A stretch of 64,000 bases of DNA from the sequence record PZ534534.1. The stretch is one strand, 5' to 3'. The notes beneath the pieces were generated by a model. It was not told where the DNA came from. It worked only from the letters and a program-made list of their open reading frames with translations, and did not search any database. Both the position numbers and the translations under genes were made by a program. This document shows, piece after piece, positions 486-7,952 of this stretch; the stretch's first letter is position 1; the number at the start of each line of letters is the position of its first letter. This DNA is from a phage.

Positions 486-2231
486 ATGGCGCAAGACATG
501 ACAAGCTTTGAGCAGGCGGTAGATCAAGTAATTGTTGATTCTGAACGTTTGCACCTGATTGTCAACGGTAACGCTGTGGATGAAGTTGTCGTAGAGGATG
601 GGACCACCATCCCTACGGTACGAAAAGCCATGCTTGACACCCTTTATTTTAAAACGCCACCGATCCCTTGGGCGTATGGTGCATCCACAACAGTTTTTAA
701 CCAGCTGTACGAGTTTAAAGGGGACACAGGCCCTCAGTGGTGGTACGCTCCCGCAGCATCAAAATCTAACCCGGTTAGAATGCCAGCAGATCCTTCACAA
801 TCTCCAAACTGGAGATTATATACCGATTCTGCAGTAATGGCAAAATACTACGCAAAACTTAACAGTCCGAGGTTCGAAGGTGACCCGCGAGTACCTACGC
901 CTCCAATGGACGACAAATCCGAGTCTATAGCAAACACAGAGTTTGTTGTTGACTATGTGGATAGCATATTTGAAGCCATGGAGGGAATGAAAGTTACTGT
1001 AGGATCTTTGGTGGTAAAAGGTCTTACAGAACTTGCTAACACTATAGTTGGTGGCACACTCACCTTACATGGGCCTGTTAATGGAGCAGATTCTACTGCA
1101 CGCTTCAGGAACCTAATCCTCACGGCAAATACTTCTACACTTACTTTTGCGTGGAGTGATCCTAAGCATGCAGACTGGAGAAGCACAGAGCTGCAACCTC
1201 ATGAAGTGTCCACCCACAGGGTTATAGCTGACACTATAACTTCTGGGAAACCAGTGGCTAATAATAACGATGTGCATTTTGATGGTCTAGGTAATAACTT
1301 TTTTGACTACGTGTACATTCGTGGTAATGCCATGAAGGCAGCAACCGAACCGACATTGCAGGTAGATGGAACCACCAGGGTTAAGAACCTTGAGGTGACA
1401 GGCACTGTTACAGGGATAACCTACTCTGTCGATGGCACCATGATTTACCCTAGCTATATTGAAAGCACGGGGGACGCATTAATAAATGGTGATTTAGAAG
1501 TTGGCGGATCTGTAGTTATTCGAGGTACAGCCTCTATCCAAAACATAGCTCTGAATACCCTAAGAGTCAATGAGCGTGCAACTTTTGAAGGGGAAGGGCT
1601 TACAGCCAACAAAGGTGTAATTACCGAGCTGACAACCACTACTTTAACTGCAACAACTGCAAACTCTGAAAACTGCAACGTTACCAGAAACTTGCAGGTA
1701 AATGGAGATGTTAGTTTAAACGCAGCAGGGACGGGCACCACCTACCTTCACAACCTTGAAATATCCGGCACAGTGACTGGGTGGCTGCCAGACTTCTCTA
1801 ATGTCAACTTTGTTTGTAATGGCATTAACTCCAGTGGCAAGATAACCACCTCTCAAGAAATTGAGGCGGGTAAAACCATTACTGCCCCTACTTTCCACGC
1901 AGGAAAGGTAGATTTTGATTTAGAGGAGGTTGACGCGTCCAGTGGGACATGGACACCTAACGGGCAGGCCAGTATGTATGTTGTCCACGCGAAAGGGGAT
2001 TTTACAATAGGACAATGGCCTGGTACATCAGCGGAAGATAAACCTTATCCATTCACTGCGGTTATCTATGTCATTCAGGATGCTGTAGGTCACAACGTGA
2101 CTTTGCACGATAAGTATGCTATCCTGTCGGCAACGCCTGTTATTAATAACAAGGCTAATAGTGTTACCTTGCTGCAATTAACATATTGTGGTGTTGGTGA
2201 TATCGTAGACGTAGTAATTGCACAACGTTAA
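486..2231 (+). CDS. putative tail fibre / structural protein (581 aa)
   Basis: AAGGAG RBS 6 nt upstream of ATG. Thr/Gly/Asn-rich beta-strand repeats (TGTVTGITYSVDG, TTTTLTATTAN) typical of fibre/adhesin proteins; lies directly upstream of giant fibre gene. Product is inference. Confidence 0.55.
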   Translation: MAQDMTSFEQAVDQVIVDSERLHLIVNGNAVDEVVVEDGTTIPTVRKAMLDTLYFKTPPIPWAYGASTTVFNQLYEFKGDTGPQWWYAPAASKSNPVRMPADPSQSPNWRLYTDSAVMAKYYAKLNSPRFEGDPRVPTPPMDDKSESIANTEFVVDYVDSIFEAMEGMKVTVGSLVVKGLTELANTIVGGTLTLHGPVNGADSTARFRNLILTANTSTLTFAWSDPKHADWRSTELQPHEVSTHRVIADTITSGKPVANNNDVHFDGLGNNFFDYVYIRGNAMKAATEPTLQVDGTTRVKNLEVTGTVTGITYSVDGTMIYPSYIESTGDALINGDLEVGGSVVIRGTASIQNIALNTLRVNERATFEGEGLTANKGVITELTTTTLTATTANSENCNVTRNLQVNGDVSLNAAGTGTTYLHNLEISGTVTGWLPDFSNVNFVCNGINSSGKITTSQEIEAGKTITAPTFHAGKVDFDLEEVDASSGTWTPNGQASMYVVHAKGDFTIGQWPGTSAEDKPYPFTAVIYVIQDAVGHNVTLHDKYAILSATPVINNKANSVTLLQLTYCGVGDIVDVVIAQR

Positions 2232-2243
2232 TATATATCTAAC

Positions 2244-2267
2244 CGCTCCTGACGGGGCGGTTTTCTT
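2244..2267 (+). terminator. rho-independent terminator
   Basis: Hairpin CCGCTCC-TGAC-GGGGCGG followed by TTTTCTT, immediately after stop of 486..2231. Confidence 0.6.
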
Positions 2268-2281
2268 ATCTGGAGAACACA

Positions 2282-5200
2282 ATGCTTCCAATCCCTTTGC
2301 TAAAACTTGGTCGTCATTTCCTCGATAAGAGGGGTGGAATTAAGGAACTTGCTGTTCTGTCATACCCAATAGACAACAGTGATGGTACAAGCAACACAGT
2401 ATCCTATGTAAATAGCTTAGCTATACTTTTTGATGATGGTCAGCTTAATATTACTGGCTATAATAGGTTCGGAGAGTGTCGGACTGGAGATCTTGATACA
2501 ATAAACTATCCTAATGAGGCAGCTTGGAACGTAGACCATGTTTGGAGAGCTGACCGTGCATTTGTAATCCGCACATTCGATAATAAATTTTTCTATATTG
2601 GTTGCACAGCTGGTCTTATCGGATCGGAGGCAGCAGGTGGAAACGATGTTTGTGTCAGAGAGTGGACACCTTTGCCGGAACAGATCGTAACAGGGTTGCA
2701 TTTGGACACCCATCCTGAGAGACTTGTTGAAGTAATGGGTGGCGTAAACAATACCGTGTGGGTAATTGCTGCACCAGAGGCTGATGGTATGCTTCACCTG
2801 TACGGCTCTGGCAATAATACTTACGGCTCTCTTCATGTTGACAAAAGTCAACACGCTACTCCAGTTAAGATCGGTGAAACATCTGAAAGTCCAGAGACAG
2901 GTCCTTGGAAAAATCCAAGAATTAATTGTGAAGTTCATGACAACTCGGTTATTTTTGGTGGTCCTAACGGATTCTGGATTGCAGGTTACGACTTTCTGAG
3001 AAATAACAGTAGAAACGACCTTGTTTGGCCTCCTGTGCAGATTACTCGTAACGATTTGAGGGGCATTCCTGCAGATGAGGAGTGGAAAGGGTTTATGTGT
3101 GGTCCTAACGGGGCAGTAATTGCTACACAGAGGATGCATAGACCCGATGACCAGCAGCTTGTTAACGTATTTTATGGTCAAAACATTTGGGGAGATGATA
3201 CATGGCGGGAACTGAATATCACCTACACCCATGAGGTAATGATGGCTCGTGGGTACGGCACAAGTGGCATTTTCTTCAATAATGGCACTAAGCAGTATCG
3301 TGGGTTCTCTCGCAACTTATGTAATGATATTGGTGCACAATCTGCAAACAATAGTCCTAGGGCCGATTTTATCCACTATCAAGCTCTTGCTACAGCTAAA
3401 TATGTTGAGCAACGCCTGCCAGTCAGCTGGACAGAGAGTGTTTATTTCCAAGGCATCCACAGAGAAGGTTTCTTAGGTACCTTTACTGTTGTTAATGGTA
3501 AACTTTGGTGGTCAGGTATCCCAAGGGGAAGTTTTACAGGATCTAATAACCTCTTTGGCGGCAGACTTAACAGCCAAGGGTTCACAGAGATTCCGGAGAA
3601 TTGGTATAAAAATGTCCCGGTAGACAGTTGGGGTGTTGAGGATATTTTCGACGTTAACGGTGTTAGCAGCGTTAGCAATATTTACATTGGTGACACGGTC
3701 AAGATGAAATTGAAGCCTCAGCCAGAGGGGGCTACGTTCATTATTGACAAGATTGAACTGGTAAATGCTGCAGGCACGGTTGTTACAGATGCAAATTACC
3801 AATTCTCCACCAACTGGAACCACGGAGGGGCCAATGAAGTTGTTGTCACCCAGTATAACAGAAATGTTAACAGACGTGGCCTGTACTCTGTAAAAATAAC
3901 CTATCATGACAAGCATGGCACAGGCAGAACCCATACGACAAGGACTTTGAACTGGAACACCATAGTTCCTGCGTACCCGTCTGATGGTAAATGGCATACT
4001 GTCGGTAGAAACAAACAGTTCCATGTTAATGATACTGTATACTTTGGGCTGAATGGGACCCAGCCTGCAGTAGAAGGGGATACATCGTATATGGTCAGAC
4101 TCCACAGAATGGATGCTGGATCAGTCACTTATGATGTGACCCAAGAGATCTACGATCAAAGACGCGCCACGTATGACAATATTGTGAAAACACAAGCCTT
4201 GTGGGAGTTCAATCCTAATGGCAAGGGTGGTAAAATGTTGCAGGTTAATGAGCAGAACGGAACGTCGTTGACTGTTCACGAACACCCAGACCCTTGGCCT
4301 GATCCTGGAAAACCTCACCCAGGAGCTCGTACACTGAAAATTGTCAGCCATGATGCAGGGTATTTCGGAATACGCTGGGAAGCTACAGTAAGATATGTCG
4401 ACGGGACAACAAACAACATAGGGATTACACTTGGCGGCACTAGTGAAGATAACTCGCTGAAAATTGCCTACACGCCCAGAGGTATCTCTATTGATAATAT
4501 GGATGTTGTTCGCAATGGTTACGGCGATGTGAATGTCAAAGTTACTCTTGGCGAACATCTTGGTGGGGAAAGGATCATCATGTATGCCTTTGATCATGAT
4601 CCACGCACCAATGGAACTTATGCAAATCAGGCATGGAGTTACCTGATAAATGCACCTGAGCCGAATACTAAAGAGTTCTACTATGGTATGAAGCGAGATG
4701 TGTGCAAGAAAACAGGAACACATGACTGGATTGCTATCTGCGTTAAAGATGAGCGCACAGCTTGGGATGAGCCTGTTAACAGATGGTTCATAGGTATTCC
4801 TACCAGAAGTGATAAGTATGTCGCAGAATATATTGTATGCATGGGCGGTACCAACCTAAACATGTGTTGGAACGAAGATGTAAACAAATACTCTGATTAT
4901 GACTATATGAGGGATTACTCTTGTAATTTGTGGTTTAACCAAACTACAGGTTACCCTCCAAGACAGGCGAGAGTAAACCCTGCAATCTTCACAGACACGC
5001 AGGTTTTCTTGACAAAACAGGCCAACGAGGTCCAGACCTTCAAGAACAAATACGACCCTAATAAGTGGTTCTATAACTGCTATGGGGCATTTTTCTGGGG
5101 ACCTGGAGAATTACCTGGTGGTGGCTCTTGTTTTGAGGCTGCAACTTACGCCAGTGACAGATTTATGGGCCAGGTCAAGAAATACAAGATAATTCCAGGG

Positions 5201-7909
5201 CCTGAAACTTTAGGCAACGCTGTCGACCCCTATATCATCATGAGTGATCTAAGATCGAACATGGATGGAACATCCATATCTATGCAAGTTCCGGTAACAA
5301 ACGGATACAAGCGTGTTGTGATGATCATTAAGTGCGATCTGATAGGTAAGCAAGTTCTTGCAGAGAACGGAACTTCCACCCACCTATTTGAGACTGCTCT
5401 GCACTATCAGTTTGCTGATTCACCTTTTGCAGGGGATAAGAGAATATCTGACACAGACGCTGTGCGATGCAAGAAATTTATGCTAGGTGGTGGGTGGTGG
5501 TGGTATGAATTTGACTTAACAGACAAATTCACCGACACGTCTAAAGTAGTGACGGGGCTTCGTCTAGACCTTGGCGAAAACATGCACAAAAGTGTTTGTG
5601 ATGGCACCTACGGTGACCCAACAATCTACTTAAAGTATGTCTCTTTTGAGCACCCAGAGGATGTTGTTTATGGTCCAAAACTGAGACTGTTTGGCAATTG
5701 GATTGCTAAAGACAGGGTAGGTATGGGCAAGAAGGTAAGAGGCTTCTTAATAGATGCCGGTACAGAGGACATGCTAGTCAATGCAGTGTGGCCTGAATTA
5801 CCTGGGACTCAGTGGAACAACTCAGCCAAATCTATAAACTGGTTCAATATCCACAGGGCTATGTGGACAACCAACTGTTACCTGTGGAAAGAGCTGAATG
5901 ACGGCGCTTTCGGGTTCACAGGCGGCAGAAGAATGGCAATCATTTGCTGGACAACGTTGCAAAGATGTTATGACCATGACTACGAGATTGGAGGTAGGGC
6001 ATGGAAAAATATTAGGGATAGAATCATAACCAACTTTGCAGATCCTAACGGTGGTGGAGCGTATGGCTTCGACTGCAGCAGGCTCATCCATTTGAACGGA
6101 TCCTCTGCCTACAAGAAAGAAGGTTACTCTGGGTCTATGATAGAATGGGGCCTGGTGAAAGATGCTCGCGTGCTGATGGGTCAACAACTTGCTGCTGCAA
6201 TAGGTCCTAATGCAGTGCAATCTGTTAAACCTGCGTGGTTTGATATCCCATTGTGGTCATCCGGTACACCAGGAACTGCTGCAATCAACCCTACCACGGG
6301 GGATCTGGAAATCTCTTGGGAGGACTTGAAGCAGGTTGGAGGCTGGGATAAAACAGGGTATCAGGTCCAGTGGTGGAGGGCTGATGGATCTTTAGCCGCT
6401 GATGAGTTTGTTAAGGACAATTTCTACACCATGTCCTCTGCAAAAGCACAGGAATTGTTCGGTCAGGCAACTCCGTCAACGATCACCATGTCTATGTGCT
6501 GTAAAGACAACAGGACTGGAGCTTTGGGGCCAAGGGTTGCTAAAGTTTTCTCAGGTATTAAATGGAATCTACCTGTCCAAAGTATTTCATGGAAGCAAAT
6601 AGGTGATAACAAGCTGCTGGTTACCCCTGCCTGTCAGTTCAACGCAACTCTTAACGTTGATCCTGCTGTTGCGGCAAACTCAGCTAAAGCTTCTGACTTC
6701 TCTGTGTCTAACACTGCTATGGCAGATGTGAGGAAGATTGACACGCTGAACGCCAGAATTACCTGTAAAAACACTTATGGCACATTCCAAATCATCAACA
6801 ACTTCACAGATGCTGATTCTAAGGTAGTGAGGACAGCAAGCCAGACTCTGAGTTTAGGAACTCTGGCCTATGCGGCACTGATCACCGAACAGTCGGCAAC
6901 ACTCCAAGGAGGCGGTGTAGGCAAGTCCATTGCAACACCTGTGTGGAAGCCAAATGAGTGGGTTGTGTTTGATTTGACTGTGGACTTCTCCAGCGATAAT
7001 AACTGGACATGGGTAAGGAATTGTTTGTCACAGTTGATGGGCGGTCCAAGCTCCGTTAGTGATAGTCACGACTCTACTGACCCGAGTGTGTTCCAGGTAG
7101 GTAAAACTCACCCAGAGACTGGAGAAACGTTGCCTGACAGGAAGTATGCGTTGGTTTGCATCTCTTACGGGAAGGCAGATGTCACATTCTCAGGGACACA
7201 CACTTATAACGGAACTTACAACTTCTCAAGGAAGTATAGTCTCAAAGCAGGGAACATTATAGACGAGGTCGGTGTGCTGTATAATCCGGGCAACGGCATA
7301 GGGATTGTGGGCGGTAAACTGCAGATGCAGGAACCTTCTATCACCCCTTCCAACGTATCCGGGATTAGAAAGACTTGGGAAAGTAGTAATACCAACATTG
7401 CAACAGTGGATGCCACCACAGGGCTGGTAACATTTAAAGCTACTGGGAATGTCACCATAAAGTTTGTAGTTAGAGATGATGCAGGCCGCAAAACGTCTTC
7501 AACATCGTTTACTGTCAGACAGATGGCACCTCAGTGGTTTATTTGGGAAGGAAATCCTCTTGACGGGGCTTACCCTAGACCTGCAGGAACGTCCAATATG
7601 AGGGTCTTTACCGGTCCGGTCATGAACAATCCGACCACAACCACCAACCCTACATTTTTTGGTGCTTACATACCTGAAATTATTGGCCTACCAAGGAACC
7701 AGATACAACTGCTTTTCGGAGCAGGTGTTGATGGTCTAGCCACTTTTGGGTACAGTGACAACATTGATGCAGCCAGAAGCTCGGGTTGGATTGGATTTAA
7801 GTTTCAGTGGAACCCTGGTGGTAGAACATTAGGTGTTGCAAGCATAGGTGTTATGCTACCTGGTAACCAGCAATACCATCTCGAAGCTTATACAAACTTC
7901 CCTAGTTAA
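2282..7909 (+). CDS. giant tail fibre / host-recognition protein (1875 aa) with C-terminal bacterial Ig-like (BIG2-type) domain
   Basis: Single uninterrupted 5.6-kb ORF, GGAG RBS. C-terminal segment ...NVSGIRKTWESSNTNIATVDATTGLVTFKATGNVTIKFVVRDDAGRKTSSTSFTV matches the BIG2 Ig-like pattern (established family knowledge). N-terminal Gly/Asn repeats (LYGSGNNTYGSLHV) resemble RCC1-like propeller blades (weak). Tail-fibre role is inference. Confidence 0.6.
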   Translation: MLPIPLLKLGRHFLDKRGGIKELAVLSYPIDNSDGTSNTVSYVNSLAILFDDGQLNITGYNRFGECRTGDLDTINYPNEAAWNVDHVWRADRAFVIRTFDNKFFYIGCTAGLIGSEAAGGNDVCVREWTPLPEQIVTGLHLDTHPERLVEVMGGVNNTVWVIAAPEADGMLHLYGSGNNTYGSLHVDKSQHATPVKIGETSESPETGPWKNPRINCEVHDNSVIFGGPNGFWIAGYDFLRNNSRNDLVWPPVQITRNDLRGIPADEEWKGFMCGPNGAVIATQRMHRPDDQQLVNVFYGQNIWGDDTWRELNITYTHEVMMARGYGTSGIFFNNGTKQYRGFSRNLCNDIGAQSANNSPRADFIHYQALATAKYVEQRLPVSWTESVYFQGIHREGFLGTFTVVNGKLWWSGIPRGSFTGSNNLFGGRLNSQGFTEIPENWYKNVPVDSWGVEDIFDVNGVSSVSNIYIGDTVKMKLKPQPEGATFIIDKIELVNAAGTVVTDANYQFSTNWNHGGANEVVVTQYNRNVNRRGLYSVKITYHDKHGTGRTHTTRTLNWNTIVPAYPSDGKWHTVGRNKQFHVNDTVYFGLNGTQPAVEGDTSYMVRLHRMDAGSVTYDVTQEIYDQRRATYDNIVKTQALWEFNPNGKGGKMLQVNEQNGTSLTVHEHPDPWPDPGKPHPGARTLKIVSHDAGYFGIRWEATVRYVDGTTNNIGITLGGTSEDNSLKIAYTPRGISIDNMDVVRNGYGDVNVKVTLGEHLGGERIIMYAFDHDPRTNGTYANQAWSYLINAPEPNTKEFYYGMKRDVCKKTGTHDWIAICVKDERTAWDEPVNRWFIGIPTRSDKYVAEYIVCMGGTNLNMCWNEDVNKYSDYDYMRDYSCNLWFNQTTGYPPRQARVNPAIFTDTQVFLTKQANEVQTFKNKYDPNKWFYNCYGAFFWGPGELPGGGSCFEAATYASDRFMGQVKKYKIIPGPETLGNAVDPYIIMSDLRSNMDGTSISMQVPVTNGYKRVVMIIKCDLIGKQVLAENGTSTHLFETALHYQFADSPFAGDKRISDTDAVRCKKFMLGGGWWWYEFDLTDKFTDTSKVVTGLRLDLGENMHKSVCDGTYGDPTIYLKYVSFEHPEDVVYGPKLRLFGNWIAKDRVGMGKKVRGFLIDAGTEDMLVNAVWPELPGTQWNNSAKSINWFNIHRAMWTTNCYLWKELNDGAFGFTGGRRMAIICWTTLQRCYDHDYEIGGRAWKNIRDRIITNFADPNGGGAYGFDCSRLIHLNGSSAYKKEGYSGSMIEWGLVKDARVLMGQQLAAAIGPNAVQSVKPAWFDIPLWSSGTPGTAAINPTTGDLEISWEDLKQVGGWDKTGYQVQWWRADGSLAADEFVKDNFYTMSSAKAQELFGQATPSTITMSMCCKDNRTGALGPRVAKVFSGIKWNLPVQSISWKQIGDNKLLVTPACQFNATLNVDPAVAANSAKASDFSVSNTAMADVRKIDTLNARITCKNTYGTFQIINNFTDADSKVVRTASQTLSLGTLAYAALITEQSATLQGGGVGKSIATPVWKPNEWVVFDLTVDFSSDNNWTWVRNCLSQLMGGPSSVSDSHDSTDPSVFQVGKTHPETGETLPDRKYALVCISYGKADVTFSGTHTYNGTYNFSRKYSLKAGNIIDEVGVLYNPGNGIGIVGGKLQMQEPSITPSNVSGIRKTWESSNTNIATVDATTGLVTFKATGNVTIKFVVRDDAGRKTSSTSFTVRQMAPQWFIWEGNPLDGAYPRPAGTSNMRVFTGPVMNNPTTTTNPTFFGAYIPEIIGLPRNQIQLLFGAGVDGLATFGYSDNIDAARSSGWIGFKFQWNPGGRTLGVASIGVMLPGNQQYHLEAYTNFPS

Positions 7910-7924
7910 CAGGAGGCAAATAAA

Positions 7925-7952
7925 AAGGGGCCAGACGGCCCCTTTCTTTTTA
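7925..7952. terminator. bidirectional rho-independent terminator between convergent genes
   Basis: GGGGCC-AGAC-GGCCCC hairpin flanked by A-tract upstream and TTTCTTTTT downstream; lies between + gene ending 7909 and - gene ending 7956. Confidence 0.7.

What the first reader, a model, noticed from the sequence alone, without database searches (positions are those of the whole stretch)
2282..7909. 1875-aa fibre/adhesin combining propeller-like repeats and a C-terminal Ig-like domain
A single 5.6-kb ORF with N-terminal Gly/Asn-rich repeats (RCC1-like by eye) and a clear BIG2-type Ig-like segment near residue 1700. Such giant multi-domain fibres determine host range; the unusual size and domain mix suggest a complex receptor-binding or depolymerase function.
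Basis: partly seen in the sequence, partly recalled or inferred. Interest (0 to 1): 0.4.

Follow-up and report, generated by a model that had tools for sequence, protein, structure and literature searches.

The report
Giant accessory tail adhesin of rV5-like phage
The 5.6-kb gene is the already-annotated rV5 gp27-type "lateral tail fiber protein with intimin domain" of a Vequintavirus coliphage: a 208-kDa string of a propeller, many Ig-like domains and a sugar-binding-like module that rides on the virion but is dispensable on lab E. coli, so it is most likely an optional host-surface adhesin and not a classical fibre or depolymerase.

Summary
Window 2282-7909 (+) is one 1875-aa ORF with an RCC1-like N-terminal propeller and a Big_2 Ig domain at residues 1682-1733.

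The window is a Vequintavirus (rV5-like myophage), 99.4% identical to BASEL phage DrSchubert. The ORF is the ortholog of rV5 gp27, the last gene of the tail-fibre operon. gp27 was detected at low coverage in rV5 virions. Its MaxBurger ortholog bas54_0041 tolerates transposon insertions on E. coli K-12.

Architecture:
- a conserved 16-aa N-terminal peptide (M-x-P-I-P)
- an RCC1-like propeller
- about 3-4 Ig-like sandwiches
- a Trp/Cys-rich helical region that is a sequence orphan, split by a CBM-like jelly-roll
- an array of about 3 further beta-sandwich (Ig-like) domains
- a Big_2 domain
- an allelic C-terminal sandwich

Related genera keep the N-peptide, Big_2 and a variable tip. phi92-like phages lack the propeller. 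No beta-helix, coiled coil or enzyme domain was found.

dN/dS is 0.02-0.12 with mosaic recombination, yet several lab isolates carry private knock-outs.

Best reading: a low-copy, probably non-trimeric, glycan-binding accessory adhesin of the tail-fibre network. The gene is already known and annotated, its function is untested, and interest is modest.

The parts
2282..7909 (+). Complete ORF, 1875 aa, 208.4 kDa, pI 6.2. Ortholog of rV5 gp27, DrSchubert bas50_0041 and MaxBurger bas54_0041; PHROG 15684.
2241..2262 (+). Terminator-like hairpin (9-bp stem, 6 GC pairs) between the upstream fibre gene and this ORF. A terminator is annotated at the same position in phAPEC8 and phiTE. This suggests attenuated, low-level expression (inference).
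2272..2275 (+). Shine-Dalgarno GGAG, 6 nt before the ATG
2282..2329 (+). N-terminal peptide, residues 1-16 (MLPIPLLKL...). The M-x-P-I-P motif is invariant in all syntenic homologs, including phi92-like muut_214, which has no propeller. Candidate virion-attachment element (inference).
2330..3616 (+). RCC1-like beta-propeller, residues ~17-445. It is the part best conserved across the more distant homologs. The blade number was not resolved (AF2 pLDDT below 50). Residues 251-300 form a variable segment.
3617..4831 (+). Residues ~446-850: about 3-4 Ig-like beta-sandwich domains. Moderate model confidence only at residues 450-560 and 730-850.
4832..5173 (+). Residues ~851-964: Trp/Cys-rich, predicted helical, low confidence. 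Part of the sequence-orphan core.
5174..5656 (+). Residues ~965-1125: beta jelly-roll (pLDDT 57-85 per 10-residue block, mostly 65-85) resembling carbohydrate-binding modules. It appears to interrupt the helical region (models are low-confidence there). Second hot spot of allelic variation.
5657..6256 (+). Residues ~1126-1325: Trp-rich (5.5% W) helical region with strongly conserved motifs (EDMLV, NWFNxHRAMW, GYSGSMIEWG). Fold and function unresolved.
6257..7288 (+). Residues ~1326-1669: about three tandem Ig-like sandwiches, nearly invariant within Vequintavirus (1-3% diversity).
7289..7528 (+). Residues ~1670-1749: Big_2 (intimin/invasin-type) Ig domain. The Pfam match itself covers residues 1682-1733.
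7529..7906 (+). Residues 1750-1875: C-terminal beta-sandwich tip. Two discrete alleles exist (the 1875-aa type as here, and the rV5 1877/1878-aa type, ~64-73% identical). It is frameshifted away in DrSchubert.
7924..7945 (+). Terminator-like hairpin ending the tail-fibre operon. Downstream genes are on the opposite strand.
486..2231 (+). Context: the upstream 581-aa fibre, a homolog of phiTE_241 (PDB 9cuy_g, modelled in the phiTE baseplate structure). Only its C-terminal ~105-aa head is shared with the Phapecoctavirus counterpart. Candidate docking partner (hypothesis).

Best explanation
The ORF encodes the Vequintavirus gp27-type protein, a low-abundance, non-essential virion protein encoded at the end of the tail-fibre operon. 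It is built as beads on a string, not as a trimeric shaft. The order is: a short conserved N-terminal peptide; an RCC1-like propeller; about 7-8 Ig-like sandwiches overall (roughly 3-4 before and 3-4 after the central region, the last being the Big_2); a CBM-like jelly-roll set inside an orphan Trp-rich helical region; and an allelic C-terminal sandwich. The proposed mechanism has three steps. First, the invariant M-x-P-I-P N-terminus fixes the protein to the tail-fibre network, possibly at the distal head of the upstream baseplate-anchored fibre. Second, the Ig-like domains act as a long flexible stalk. Third, the propeller, the CBM-like module and the C-terminal tip make lectin-like, probably low-affinity, contacts with surface polysaccharides. 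These contacts would raise adsorption on particular natural hosts, while the core infection route (NGR/ECA-type glycan plus LPS core, through other fibres) does not need them. Shown: the ORF, the domain identities, synteny, presence in virions (for the rV5 ortholog), dispensability on K-12 (for the Bas54 ortholog), purifying selection and mosaicism. Inferred: the attachment site and the role of the N-peptide, monomeric state, glycan binding, and a host-specific benefit.
Against: No binding, localisation or oligomeric-state data exist for this protein. Both AF2 models are weak (mean pLDDT 43 and 59), so domain counts and the CBM assignment are at fold level only. Residues ~851-964 and ~1126-1325 are unresolved and could hold an enzyme. 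Docking on the upstream fibre head is weak: that head occurs in 385 phage records against ~228 for the propeller. In Mydovirus KPP-1 the fibre with this head has no downstream partner. I could not confirm that the cryo-EM 'TC8' fibre is the upstream neighbour. Whether 0041 is conditionally needed on the clinical isolates is shown only in a figure I could not read.
Confidence: 0.55

Rival explanations
1. It is an enzyme-bearing accessory protein. The orphan Trp-rich helical region (residues ~851-964 plus 1126-1325) with its inserted CBM-like module would be a novel polysaccharide hydrolase or lyase, for example an alpha/alpha-toroid type. The Ig stalk would present it to capsule, colanic acid or O-antigen.
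For: The helical region is strongly conserved across 40-93%-identical homologs, with many invariant Trp, His, Arg, Glu and Tyr residues (EDMLV, NWFNxHRAMW, GYSGSMIEWG). A CBM-like domain appears to sit inside it. Other fibre proteins of this phage group carry glycan-processing domains. From memory only, N-x-H...W motifs recall alginate-lyase NNHSYW; this was not tested.
Against: No Pfam, NCBIfam, PHROG or PDB-sequence hit to any enzyme family, even when all 16 family members were scanned. An exhaustive HMMER search of 1.84 billion representatives with residues 560-1660 found only the protein's own family. The model there is unreliable (pLDDT 20-35), so there is no fold evidence.
Confidence: 0.15
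2. It is a classical trimeric lateral tail fibre or tailspike that is the primary host-range determinant.
For: It sits in the fibre operon and is annotated 'lateral tail fiber protein'. The BASEL paper lists it among three large fibre genes with allelic variation. Thin 70-nm fibres are occasionally seen on rV5.
Against: No coiled-coil, beta-helix, collagen-like, S74 or fibre-tip hits. The confident model parts are Ig-like or CBM-like sandwiches, which in the matched structures are mostly non-trimeric chains. It is dispensable on K-12, whereas the neighbouring fibre gene 0040 is not on the dispensable list. Cryo-EM of two Vequintaviruses found only three fibres near the baseplate, and none was assigned to this protein. 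Variation is modest and consists of discrete alleles.
Confidence: 0.12
3. It is a capsid or neck decoration, a Hoc-like Ig-domain protein. It would mediate weak adherence to mucus or other surfaces and would not be part of the tail-fibre apparatus.
For: The matching PHROG 215, 'structural protein with Ig domain', is filed under head and packaging. It is dispensable, as Hoc is (the Hoc comparison is from general knowledge). A weak profile hit to a phage decoration protein at the Ig region (9kmh, E=0.2).
Against: The gene lies at the end of the tail-fibre operon in at least five genera. Its N-terminal module matches PHROG 11922 'tail protein'. MS coverage was 3.1%, against 83-85% for the rV5 capsid and decoration proteins.
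Confidence: 0.08
4. It is not a virion component. It would be a soluble or cell-associated protein made late in infection, for example for lysis-from-without protection, superinfection exclusion or a released lectin.
For: It is dispensable for forming infective virions, and MS support is only 3 peptides.
Against: It was detected in purified rV5 virions. Its placement is in the late fibre operon. No signal-peptide-like or membrane features are evident in the N-terminus (by inspection). All matched folds are surface-exposed adhesion modules.
Confidence: 0.03

Closest known systems
rV5 gp27 / PHROG 15684 (Vequintavirus 'Ig-like domain-containing protein', BASEL 'lateral tail fiber protein with intimin domain')
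   Same: Orthologous over the full length (PHROG 15684 at 4431 bits covering residues 1-1874; 89-99.6% amino-acid identity to >100 deposited phages), with the same operon position.
   Different: Nothing essential. This copy carries the 1875-aa C-terminal allele instead of the rV5 1878-aa allele. It is intact, unlike DrSchubert, magaca, nomine, ECP26 and EPFV3.
Syntenic 'tail proteins' of related genera: phAPEC8_00180 (Phapecoctavirus, 891 aa), SPLA5a/PVP-SE1 tail protein (Seunavirus, 573 aa), muut_214 (phi92-like Justusliebigvirus, 628 aa)
   Same: Last gene of the fibre operon. They share the invariant M-x-P-I-P N-terminus, Big_2 domains and a variable C-terminal domain. The RCC1-like propeller is shared with the first two.
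   Different: The Vequintavirus protein has ~1200 extra residues (Ig-like sandwiches, the orphan helical region and a CBM-like module) between the propeller and Big_2. muut_214 lacks the propeller altogether. The C-terminal domains are unrelated.
Phage N4 gp65 'non-contractile tail sheath' (PDB 9lc0_I) and the 'Megatron' protein of siphophage R4C (8gtc_M)
   Different: 6-11% sequence identity, so this is fold resemblance only. They come from different virion types (podo- and siphovirus) with different attachment, and no homology is shown.
Intimin / invasin (bacterial Big_2-array adhesins)
   Same: A Big_2-type Ig domain (weak phmmer hits to intimin 1e5u/1f00 at E~0.006-0.013; invasin 1cwv by Foldseek). 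The overall logic is also shared: a rod of Ig-like domains presenting a distal binding domain.
   Different: No LysM, no outer-membrane beta-barrel anchor and no C-type-lectin tip were detected. NCBIfam intimin scores 21 bits against a cut-off of 1400. The 'intimin domain' label means only one Big_2 domain.
SU10 nozzle protein gp17 (7z47_G)
   Same: A phage tail protein combining a seven-bladed propeller with a chain of Ig-like domains. Foldseek hit at E=2e-8 through the Ig domains.
   Different: The SU10 propeller forms a hexameric ring around the tail channel of a podovirus. Here the propeller is an optional N-terminal cassette in a myovirus accessory protein. No sequence homology.
RCC1-like domains (HERC1/2, RPGR, RCC2, UVR8)
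   Same: The N-terminal profile matches them specifically, through several repeats.
   Different: The window protein alone does not reach Pfam gathering scores. No functional link to GEF or ubiquitin-ligase roles is implied; here the propeller is presumably a binding scaffold.

Membership tests
Big_2 (PF02368) bacterial Ig-like domain | Match to the Pfam model above the gathering score | tested here: met
   34.7 bits against a cut-off of 22.8, residues 1682-1733. The precomputed Pfam for P0001 agrees.
RCC1-like beta-propeller | Sequence homology to RCC1 repeats / RLD | tested here: met
   The family profile hits only RLD proteins in the PDB (best E=6.7e-7, multiple blades). PHROG 4219 at E=4e-7. 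The homologs pass the PF00415 cut-off (24.0 and 28.3 bits against 21.7). The window protein alone is sub-threshold (PF25390 at 20 bits against 150).
RCC1-like beta-propeller | Seven blades closing into a propeller | tested here: inconclusive
   The AF2 model of residues 1-450 has pLDDT mostly below 50. A relaxed motif scan located five blade-like G-x-N-x-x-G sites (residues 58, 113-118, 174, 233, 419); inspection of the sequence suggests about seven.
Intimin/invasin adhesins | Full-length family match (LysM, beta-barrel anchor, Ig array, C-type lectin tip) | tested here: not met
   NCBIfam intimin_all scores 21.4 bits against a cut-off of 1400, over 39 residues only. No LysM or barrel hits.
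Classical trimeric tail fibre / tailspike | Trimerising shaft (coiled coil, triple beta-helix or beta-helix) and/or an S74 or separate chaperone-dependent tip | tested here: not met
   No such Pfam, PHROG or PDB hits. The confident model parts are Ig-like or CBM-like sandwiches.
Classical trimeric tail fibre / tailspike | Homotrimeric state in the virion | not testable with these tools
   No multimer prediction or experimental data were available.
Phage depolymerase | Recognisable glycanase, lyase or esterase domain | tested here: not met
   None detected by Pfam, NCBIfam, PHROG, PDB profile or exhaustive HMMER searches. The helical region remains unresolved, so this is absence of evidence only.
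Carbohydrate-binding module (beta jelly-roll) | Fold match to CBM families | tested here: inconclusive
Virion structural protein | Detected in purified particles | tested here: met
   The rV5 gp27 ortholog gave 3 peptides, 9 spectra and 3.1% coverage (supplement of PMC3606486). This was not tested for this exact phage.
Hoc-like capsid decoration | Encoded with head genes and abundant on the capsid | tested here: not met
   It is encoded at the end of the tail-fibre operon. MS coverage was low compared with 83-85% for the capsid and decoration proteins.

The most novel reading that the evidence does not exclude
The rV5-like supergroup may have a so-far undescribed class of 'piggy-back' receptor-binding proteins. 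These would be non-trimeric chains that plug into the fibre network through a conserved ~16-residue M-x-P-I-P N-terminal peptide, perhaps onto the C-terminal head of the baseplate-anchored phiTE_241-type fibre. They would carry exchangeable cargo cassettes: an RCC1 propeller, Ig stalks, CBMs and esterase-like tips. In Vequintavirus the cargo would include a new, sequence-orphan polysaccharide-active enzyme fold (residues ~851-1325). This protein could then account for the unassigned density seen at a fibre tip in Bas54 cryo-EM, and by extension bear on the still-unassigned fibre II of phi92.
Probability: 0.15. Interest if true: 0.55.

Novelty: already known. Interest (0 to 1): 0.27.

Why it matters
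Vequintaviruses are broad-host-range coliphages that are frequently isolated for therapy and biocontrol. Their nine or so 'fibre' genes are largely unassigned to structures or receptors. Three points help interpret the unassigned cryo-EM densities in Bas49/Bas54, phi92 and phiTE. The largest of these genes is not a classical fibre but an optional Ig/CBM/propeller adhesin. It shares a docking-type N-terminal peptide with shorter proteins in sister genera. It is repeatedly lost in lab isolates. This also points to a dispensable locus that could be re-engineered, by cargo swapping behind the N-peptide, to add host specificities. In itself, though, the gene is already annotated and its dispensability has been published.

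Tried and rejected
1. AF2 on residues 1-1000 with the 16-sequence family alignment gave mean pLDDT 43. The propeller and the helical region were not resolved, so its Foldseek hits were used only for the Ig-like region.
2. AF2 on residues 876-1875 gave mean pLDDT 59. Only the jelly-roll and the C-terminal sandwiches are usable.
3. Word-indexed homolog searches returned only 15 full-length clusters and 3 N-terminal clusters. They missed the Phapecoctavirus and Seunavirus homologs, which tblastn found.
4. An exhaustive HMMER search of 1.84 billion representatives with residues 560-1660 found only the protein's own family.
5. The PDB profile search with the full family alignment gave only two insignificant Ig-type hits.
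6. Pfam scans of all 16 members found nothing in residues 450-1660 beyond weak Ig-like hits. NCBIfam gave only a trivial intimin fragment.
7. IMG/VR yielded only 3 loci, so the variation analysis used GenBank records instead.
8. The idea that the propeller is the virion anchor was downgraded after muut_214 was found to keep the N-peptide without the propeller.
9. Strict co-occurrence of the upstream fibre head with the downstream protein was rejected: there are 385 records against ~228, and Mydovirus has the head with no partner.
10. phiTE_242 as a homolog is only weakly supported: hhalign E=0.002, probability 14%. The jumbo-phage downstream proteins are not homologs.
11. The RBPseg supplement and the 2012 phi92 paper were not available, so TC8/RBP65 could not be identified by gene.
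12. Diversifying selection at the tip was rejected: dN/dS is 0.12 there, and the variation is two discrete alleles.
Full report
**Observation.** Window 2282-7909 (+) is a single ORF of 1875 codons. It starts at an ATG 6 nt after a GGAG. Terminator-like hairpins lie on both sides, at 2241-2262 and 7924-7945. The predicted protein is 208.4 kDa. The gene contains no DNA tandem repeats.

Pfam Big_2 matches residues 1682-1733 above threshold (E=1.7e-8). The N-terminus is RCC1-like on four lines of evidence:
- PHROG 4219 matches at E=4e-7.
- Pfam RCC1-like domain PF25390 matches at E=3.8e-4.
- 12 of 16 family members hit PF25390.
- A profile of the N-terminal 450 residues from four phage groups hits only RCC1-like propellers in the PDB (HERC1 6.7e-7, RPGR, HERC2, RCC2, UVR8), through several blades.

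**What the window is.** The ORF is 99.4% identical in DNA to Escherichia phages DrSchubert (BASEL Bas50) and Mangalyan. It is 91-97% identical to >100 other Vequintavirus (rV5-like) genomes. In DrSchubert it is bas50_0041, 'lateral tail fiber protein with intimin domain'. That is the last gene of the + strand tail-fibre operon, and genes on the opposite strand follow it. Other records call it 'Ig-like domain-containing protein' or 'structural protein with Ig domain'. It matches PHROG 15684 (unknown function) end to end.

It corresponds to rV5 gp27, which is 1878 aa and 208,334 Da. The BASEL paper describes gp27 as the last large lateral tail fibre gene, with moderate allelic variation. gp27 was detected in rV5 virions by MudPIT with 3 peptides, 9 spectra and 3.1% coverage. 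The MaxBurger ortholog is bas54_0041. A HIDEN-SEQ preprint lists it among fibre genes that tolerate disruptive insertions on E. coli K-12. The neighbouring gene bas54_0040 is not on that list.

**Distribution.** Full-length relatives are confined to Vequintavirus and Vequintavirus-like metagenomic phages. There are 15 clusters at 40-93% identity, and synteny is identical in the two checked. An exhaustive HMMER search of 1.84 billion representative proteins with residues 560-1660 found only the protein's own family. The central ~1100 residues are therefore a sequence orphan.

**Anatomy.** Both structure predictions were limited by the shallow alignment. The N-half (residues 1-1000) had mean pLDDT 43. 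Only sandwiches at ~450-560 and ~730-850 reached moderate confidence, and these match chains of 3-4 Ig ectodomains. The C-half (residues 876-1875) had mean pLDDT 59 and showed three things:
- a beta jelly-roll at ~965-1125, with pLDDT 57-85 per 10-residue block (mostly 65-85);
- a low-confidence helical stretch at ~1126-1325;
- about five successive beta-sandwiches from ~1330 to 1875, with pLDDT mostly 60-90 and lower (44-71) over the last ~125 residues.

The helical parts (851-964 and 1126-1325) are Trp- and Cys-rich. They contain the most strikingly conserved motifs in the family alignment. They gave no hit of any kind. I found no coiled coil, beta-helix, S74 chaperone or enzyme domain by Pfam, PHROG, NCBIfam or PDB-sequence searches.

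**Modular relatives.** tblastn shows that only residues 1-~207 are shared (30-39% identity) with the last fibre-operon gene of Phapecoctavirus, Seunavirus and relatives. A weaker match covers the last blade near residue 400.
- phAPEC8_00180 (891 aa) is an RCC1 propeller, two Big_2 domains and a C-terminal domain.
- Seunavirus SPLA5a (573 aa) is an RCC1 propeller plus Big_2.
- muut_214 (628 aa), in the phi92-like phage muut, begins MYPIPLF. It aligns to phAPEC8_00180 residues 1-16 and then jumps directly to residues 411-587 (62% identity, Big_2 x2). The propeller is cleanly absent.

All these proteins start with M-[LFY]-P-I-P-[LIVA]. This motif occurs at the N-terminus of only one of 170 ORFs of at least 60 aa in the window, namely the ORF studied here. 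So the universally retained elements are the N-terminal peptide and Big_2. The propeller is an optional cassette. The Vequintavirus protein is an expanded version with ~1200 extra residues.

**Where it might attach.** The upstream neighbour (window 486-2231, 581 aa) is a clear homolog (E=9e-77) of phiTE_241, a chain modelled in the phiTE baseplate structure (PDB 9cuy). By its description it is most likely the fibre the authors call LTF, which attaches to the outer wedge. That identification is my inference.

Between Vequintavirus and Phapecoctavirus, these upstream fibres share only their C-terminal ~105 residues, at 51% identity. This mirrors the N-terminal-only conservation of the downstream proteins. 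[quoted passage not shown] That suggests the giant protein docks on this head.

The support for this is only moderate, for three reasons. The head is more widespread than the downstream protein, with 385 records against ~228. Mydovirus has the head with no downstream partner. I could not verify that TC8 is the upstream neighbour. A terminator is annotated or predicted between the two genes in Vequintavirus, phAPEC8 and phiTE. This fits reduced expression and the low MS signal.

**Variation and selection.** Across 15 Vequintavirus orthologs, the Ig array at residues 1301-1700 is almost invariant (1-3% pairwise amino-acid diversity). Hot spots are residues 251-300, 951-1200 and 1751-1875. The C-terminal hot spot reflects two discrete alleles, the 1875-aa type and the rV5 1877/1878-aa type, and not hypervariability. 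Residues 251-300 and 951-1000 also fall into a few allele classes. dS differs about 20-fold between segments (0.05-1.0), which indicates mosaic recombination. dN/dS is 0.02-0.12 throughout, which indicates purifying selection.

Several deposited isolates nevertheless carry private disruptions:
- DrSchubert has a 1-nt deletion in a T-run, which frameshifts after residue 1792.
- EPFV3 has a frameshift near residue 1280.
- nomine has W82amber.
- magaca and ECP26 both have Y617 TAT->TAG, although their alleles are only ~89% identical with different flanking SNPs. Each TAG 41-mer is unique to its own record.

Under a uniform model, such a coincidence among three nonsense mutations has P~0.004. This is a post hoc estimate, and I leave the coincidence unexplained. 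Together the data describe a gene maintained in nature but dispensable, and perhaps a burden, in laboratory propagation.

**Interpretation.** The best-supported reading (confidence ~0.55) is a low-copy accessory adhesin of the tail-fibre network.
- The conserved N-terminal peptide would anchor it.
- Ig-like domains would form a flexible stalk several tens of nm long.
- The propeller, the CBM-like module and the C-terminal tip would make lectin-like contacts with surface glycans, improving adsorption on some natural hosts.
- The essential recognition steps would be carried by other fibres: the ECA/NGR-binding deacetylase fibre and the LPS-core-binding short fibres, per the BASEL papers.

The rivals are an enzyme hidden in the orphan helical region (0.15), a classical trimeric host-range fibre or depolymerase (0.12), a capsid or neck decoration (0.08) and a non-virion protein (0.03).

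Noticed in passing
window 4130-4132 (codon 617) and 2525-2527 (codon 82); loci L029, L030, L031: Two divergent deposited alleles (magaca and ECP26, ~89% identical) carry the same private Y617 TAT->TAG nonsense change. nomine carries W82 TGG->TAG. All three nonsense alleles are amber, and the rest of the ORF is intact in each. The coincidence has P~0.004 under a uniform model (post hoc) and is unexplained.
   Followed up: partly
window ~7652-7656 (T-run, ORF nt ~5374); L001 12001-17627: DrSchubert, 99.4% identical to the window, has a 1-nt deletion in a T-run. It frameshifts the protein after residue 1792 and removes most of the C-terminal domain. This could be a real mutation or a homopolymer sequencing error.
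   Followed up: yes
window 486-2231 (+): The upstream 581-aa 'lateral tail fiber protein with glycosidase domain' is a homolog of phiTE_241 (PDB 9cuy_g, E=9e-77). No glycosidase domain was detectable by Pfam here. Its last ~105 residues form a head module found in 385 phage records, including jumbo phages, Mydovirus and phiTE.
   Followed up: partly
window 2241-2262; L002 7964-8079; L025 4273-4286: A terminator is predicted or annotated between the fibre gene and the downstream N-peptide protein in Vequintavirus, phAPEC8 and phiTE. This hints at conserved attenuation of the last gene.
   Followed up: no
L025 4306-5544 (phiTE_242): phiTE_242 (413 aa, hypothetical) follows fibre gene 241 after a terminator. 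Its N-terminus is weakly propeller-like (MIPFAII..., hhalign E=0.002, probability 14%). It may be a remote member of the same family.
   Followed up: partly
L020 17189-18298 (-): A metagenomic Vequintavirus-like phage contig encodes a 369-aa protein with a YadA_anchor (trimeric autotransporter anchor) Pfam hit, a few genes downstream of the homolog of this ORF. That is unusual for a phage gene.
   Followed up: no
GenBank records MG0656xx: 15-16 records named 'Campylobacter phage' with host C. jejuni are 93-97% identical to E. coli Vequintavirus and Phapecoctavirus in this gene. This suggests misattributed hosts or co-isolated coliphages.
   Followed up: no
P0019: A partial 'hypothetical protein [Eggerthella lenta]' is 96% identical to the N-terminus of this phage protein. 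It is probably phage contamination in that assembly.
   Followed up: no
window 1-64000: ARAGORN found no tRNA genes in the 64-kb window. GC skew flips at ~8 kb, ~14-16 kb and ~56-58 kb; the first two coincide with the strand switches of the gene blocks listed for 1-14 kb, and the ~56-58 kb flip was not checked against ORFs.
   Followed up: no
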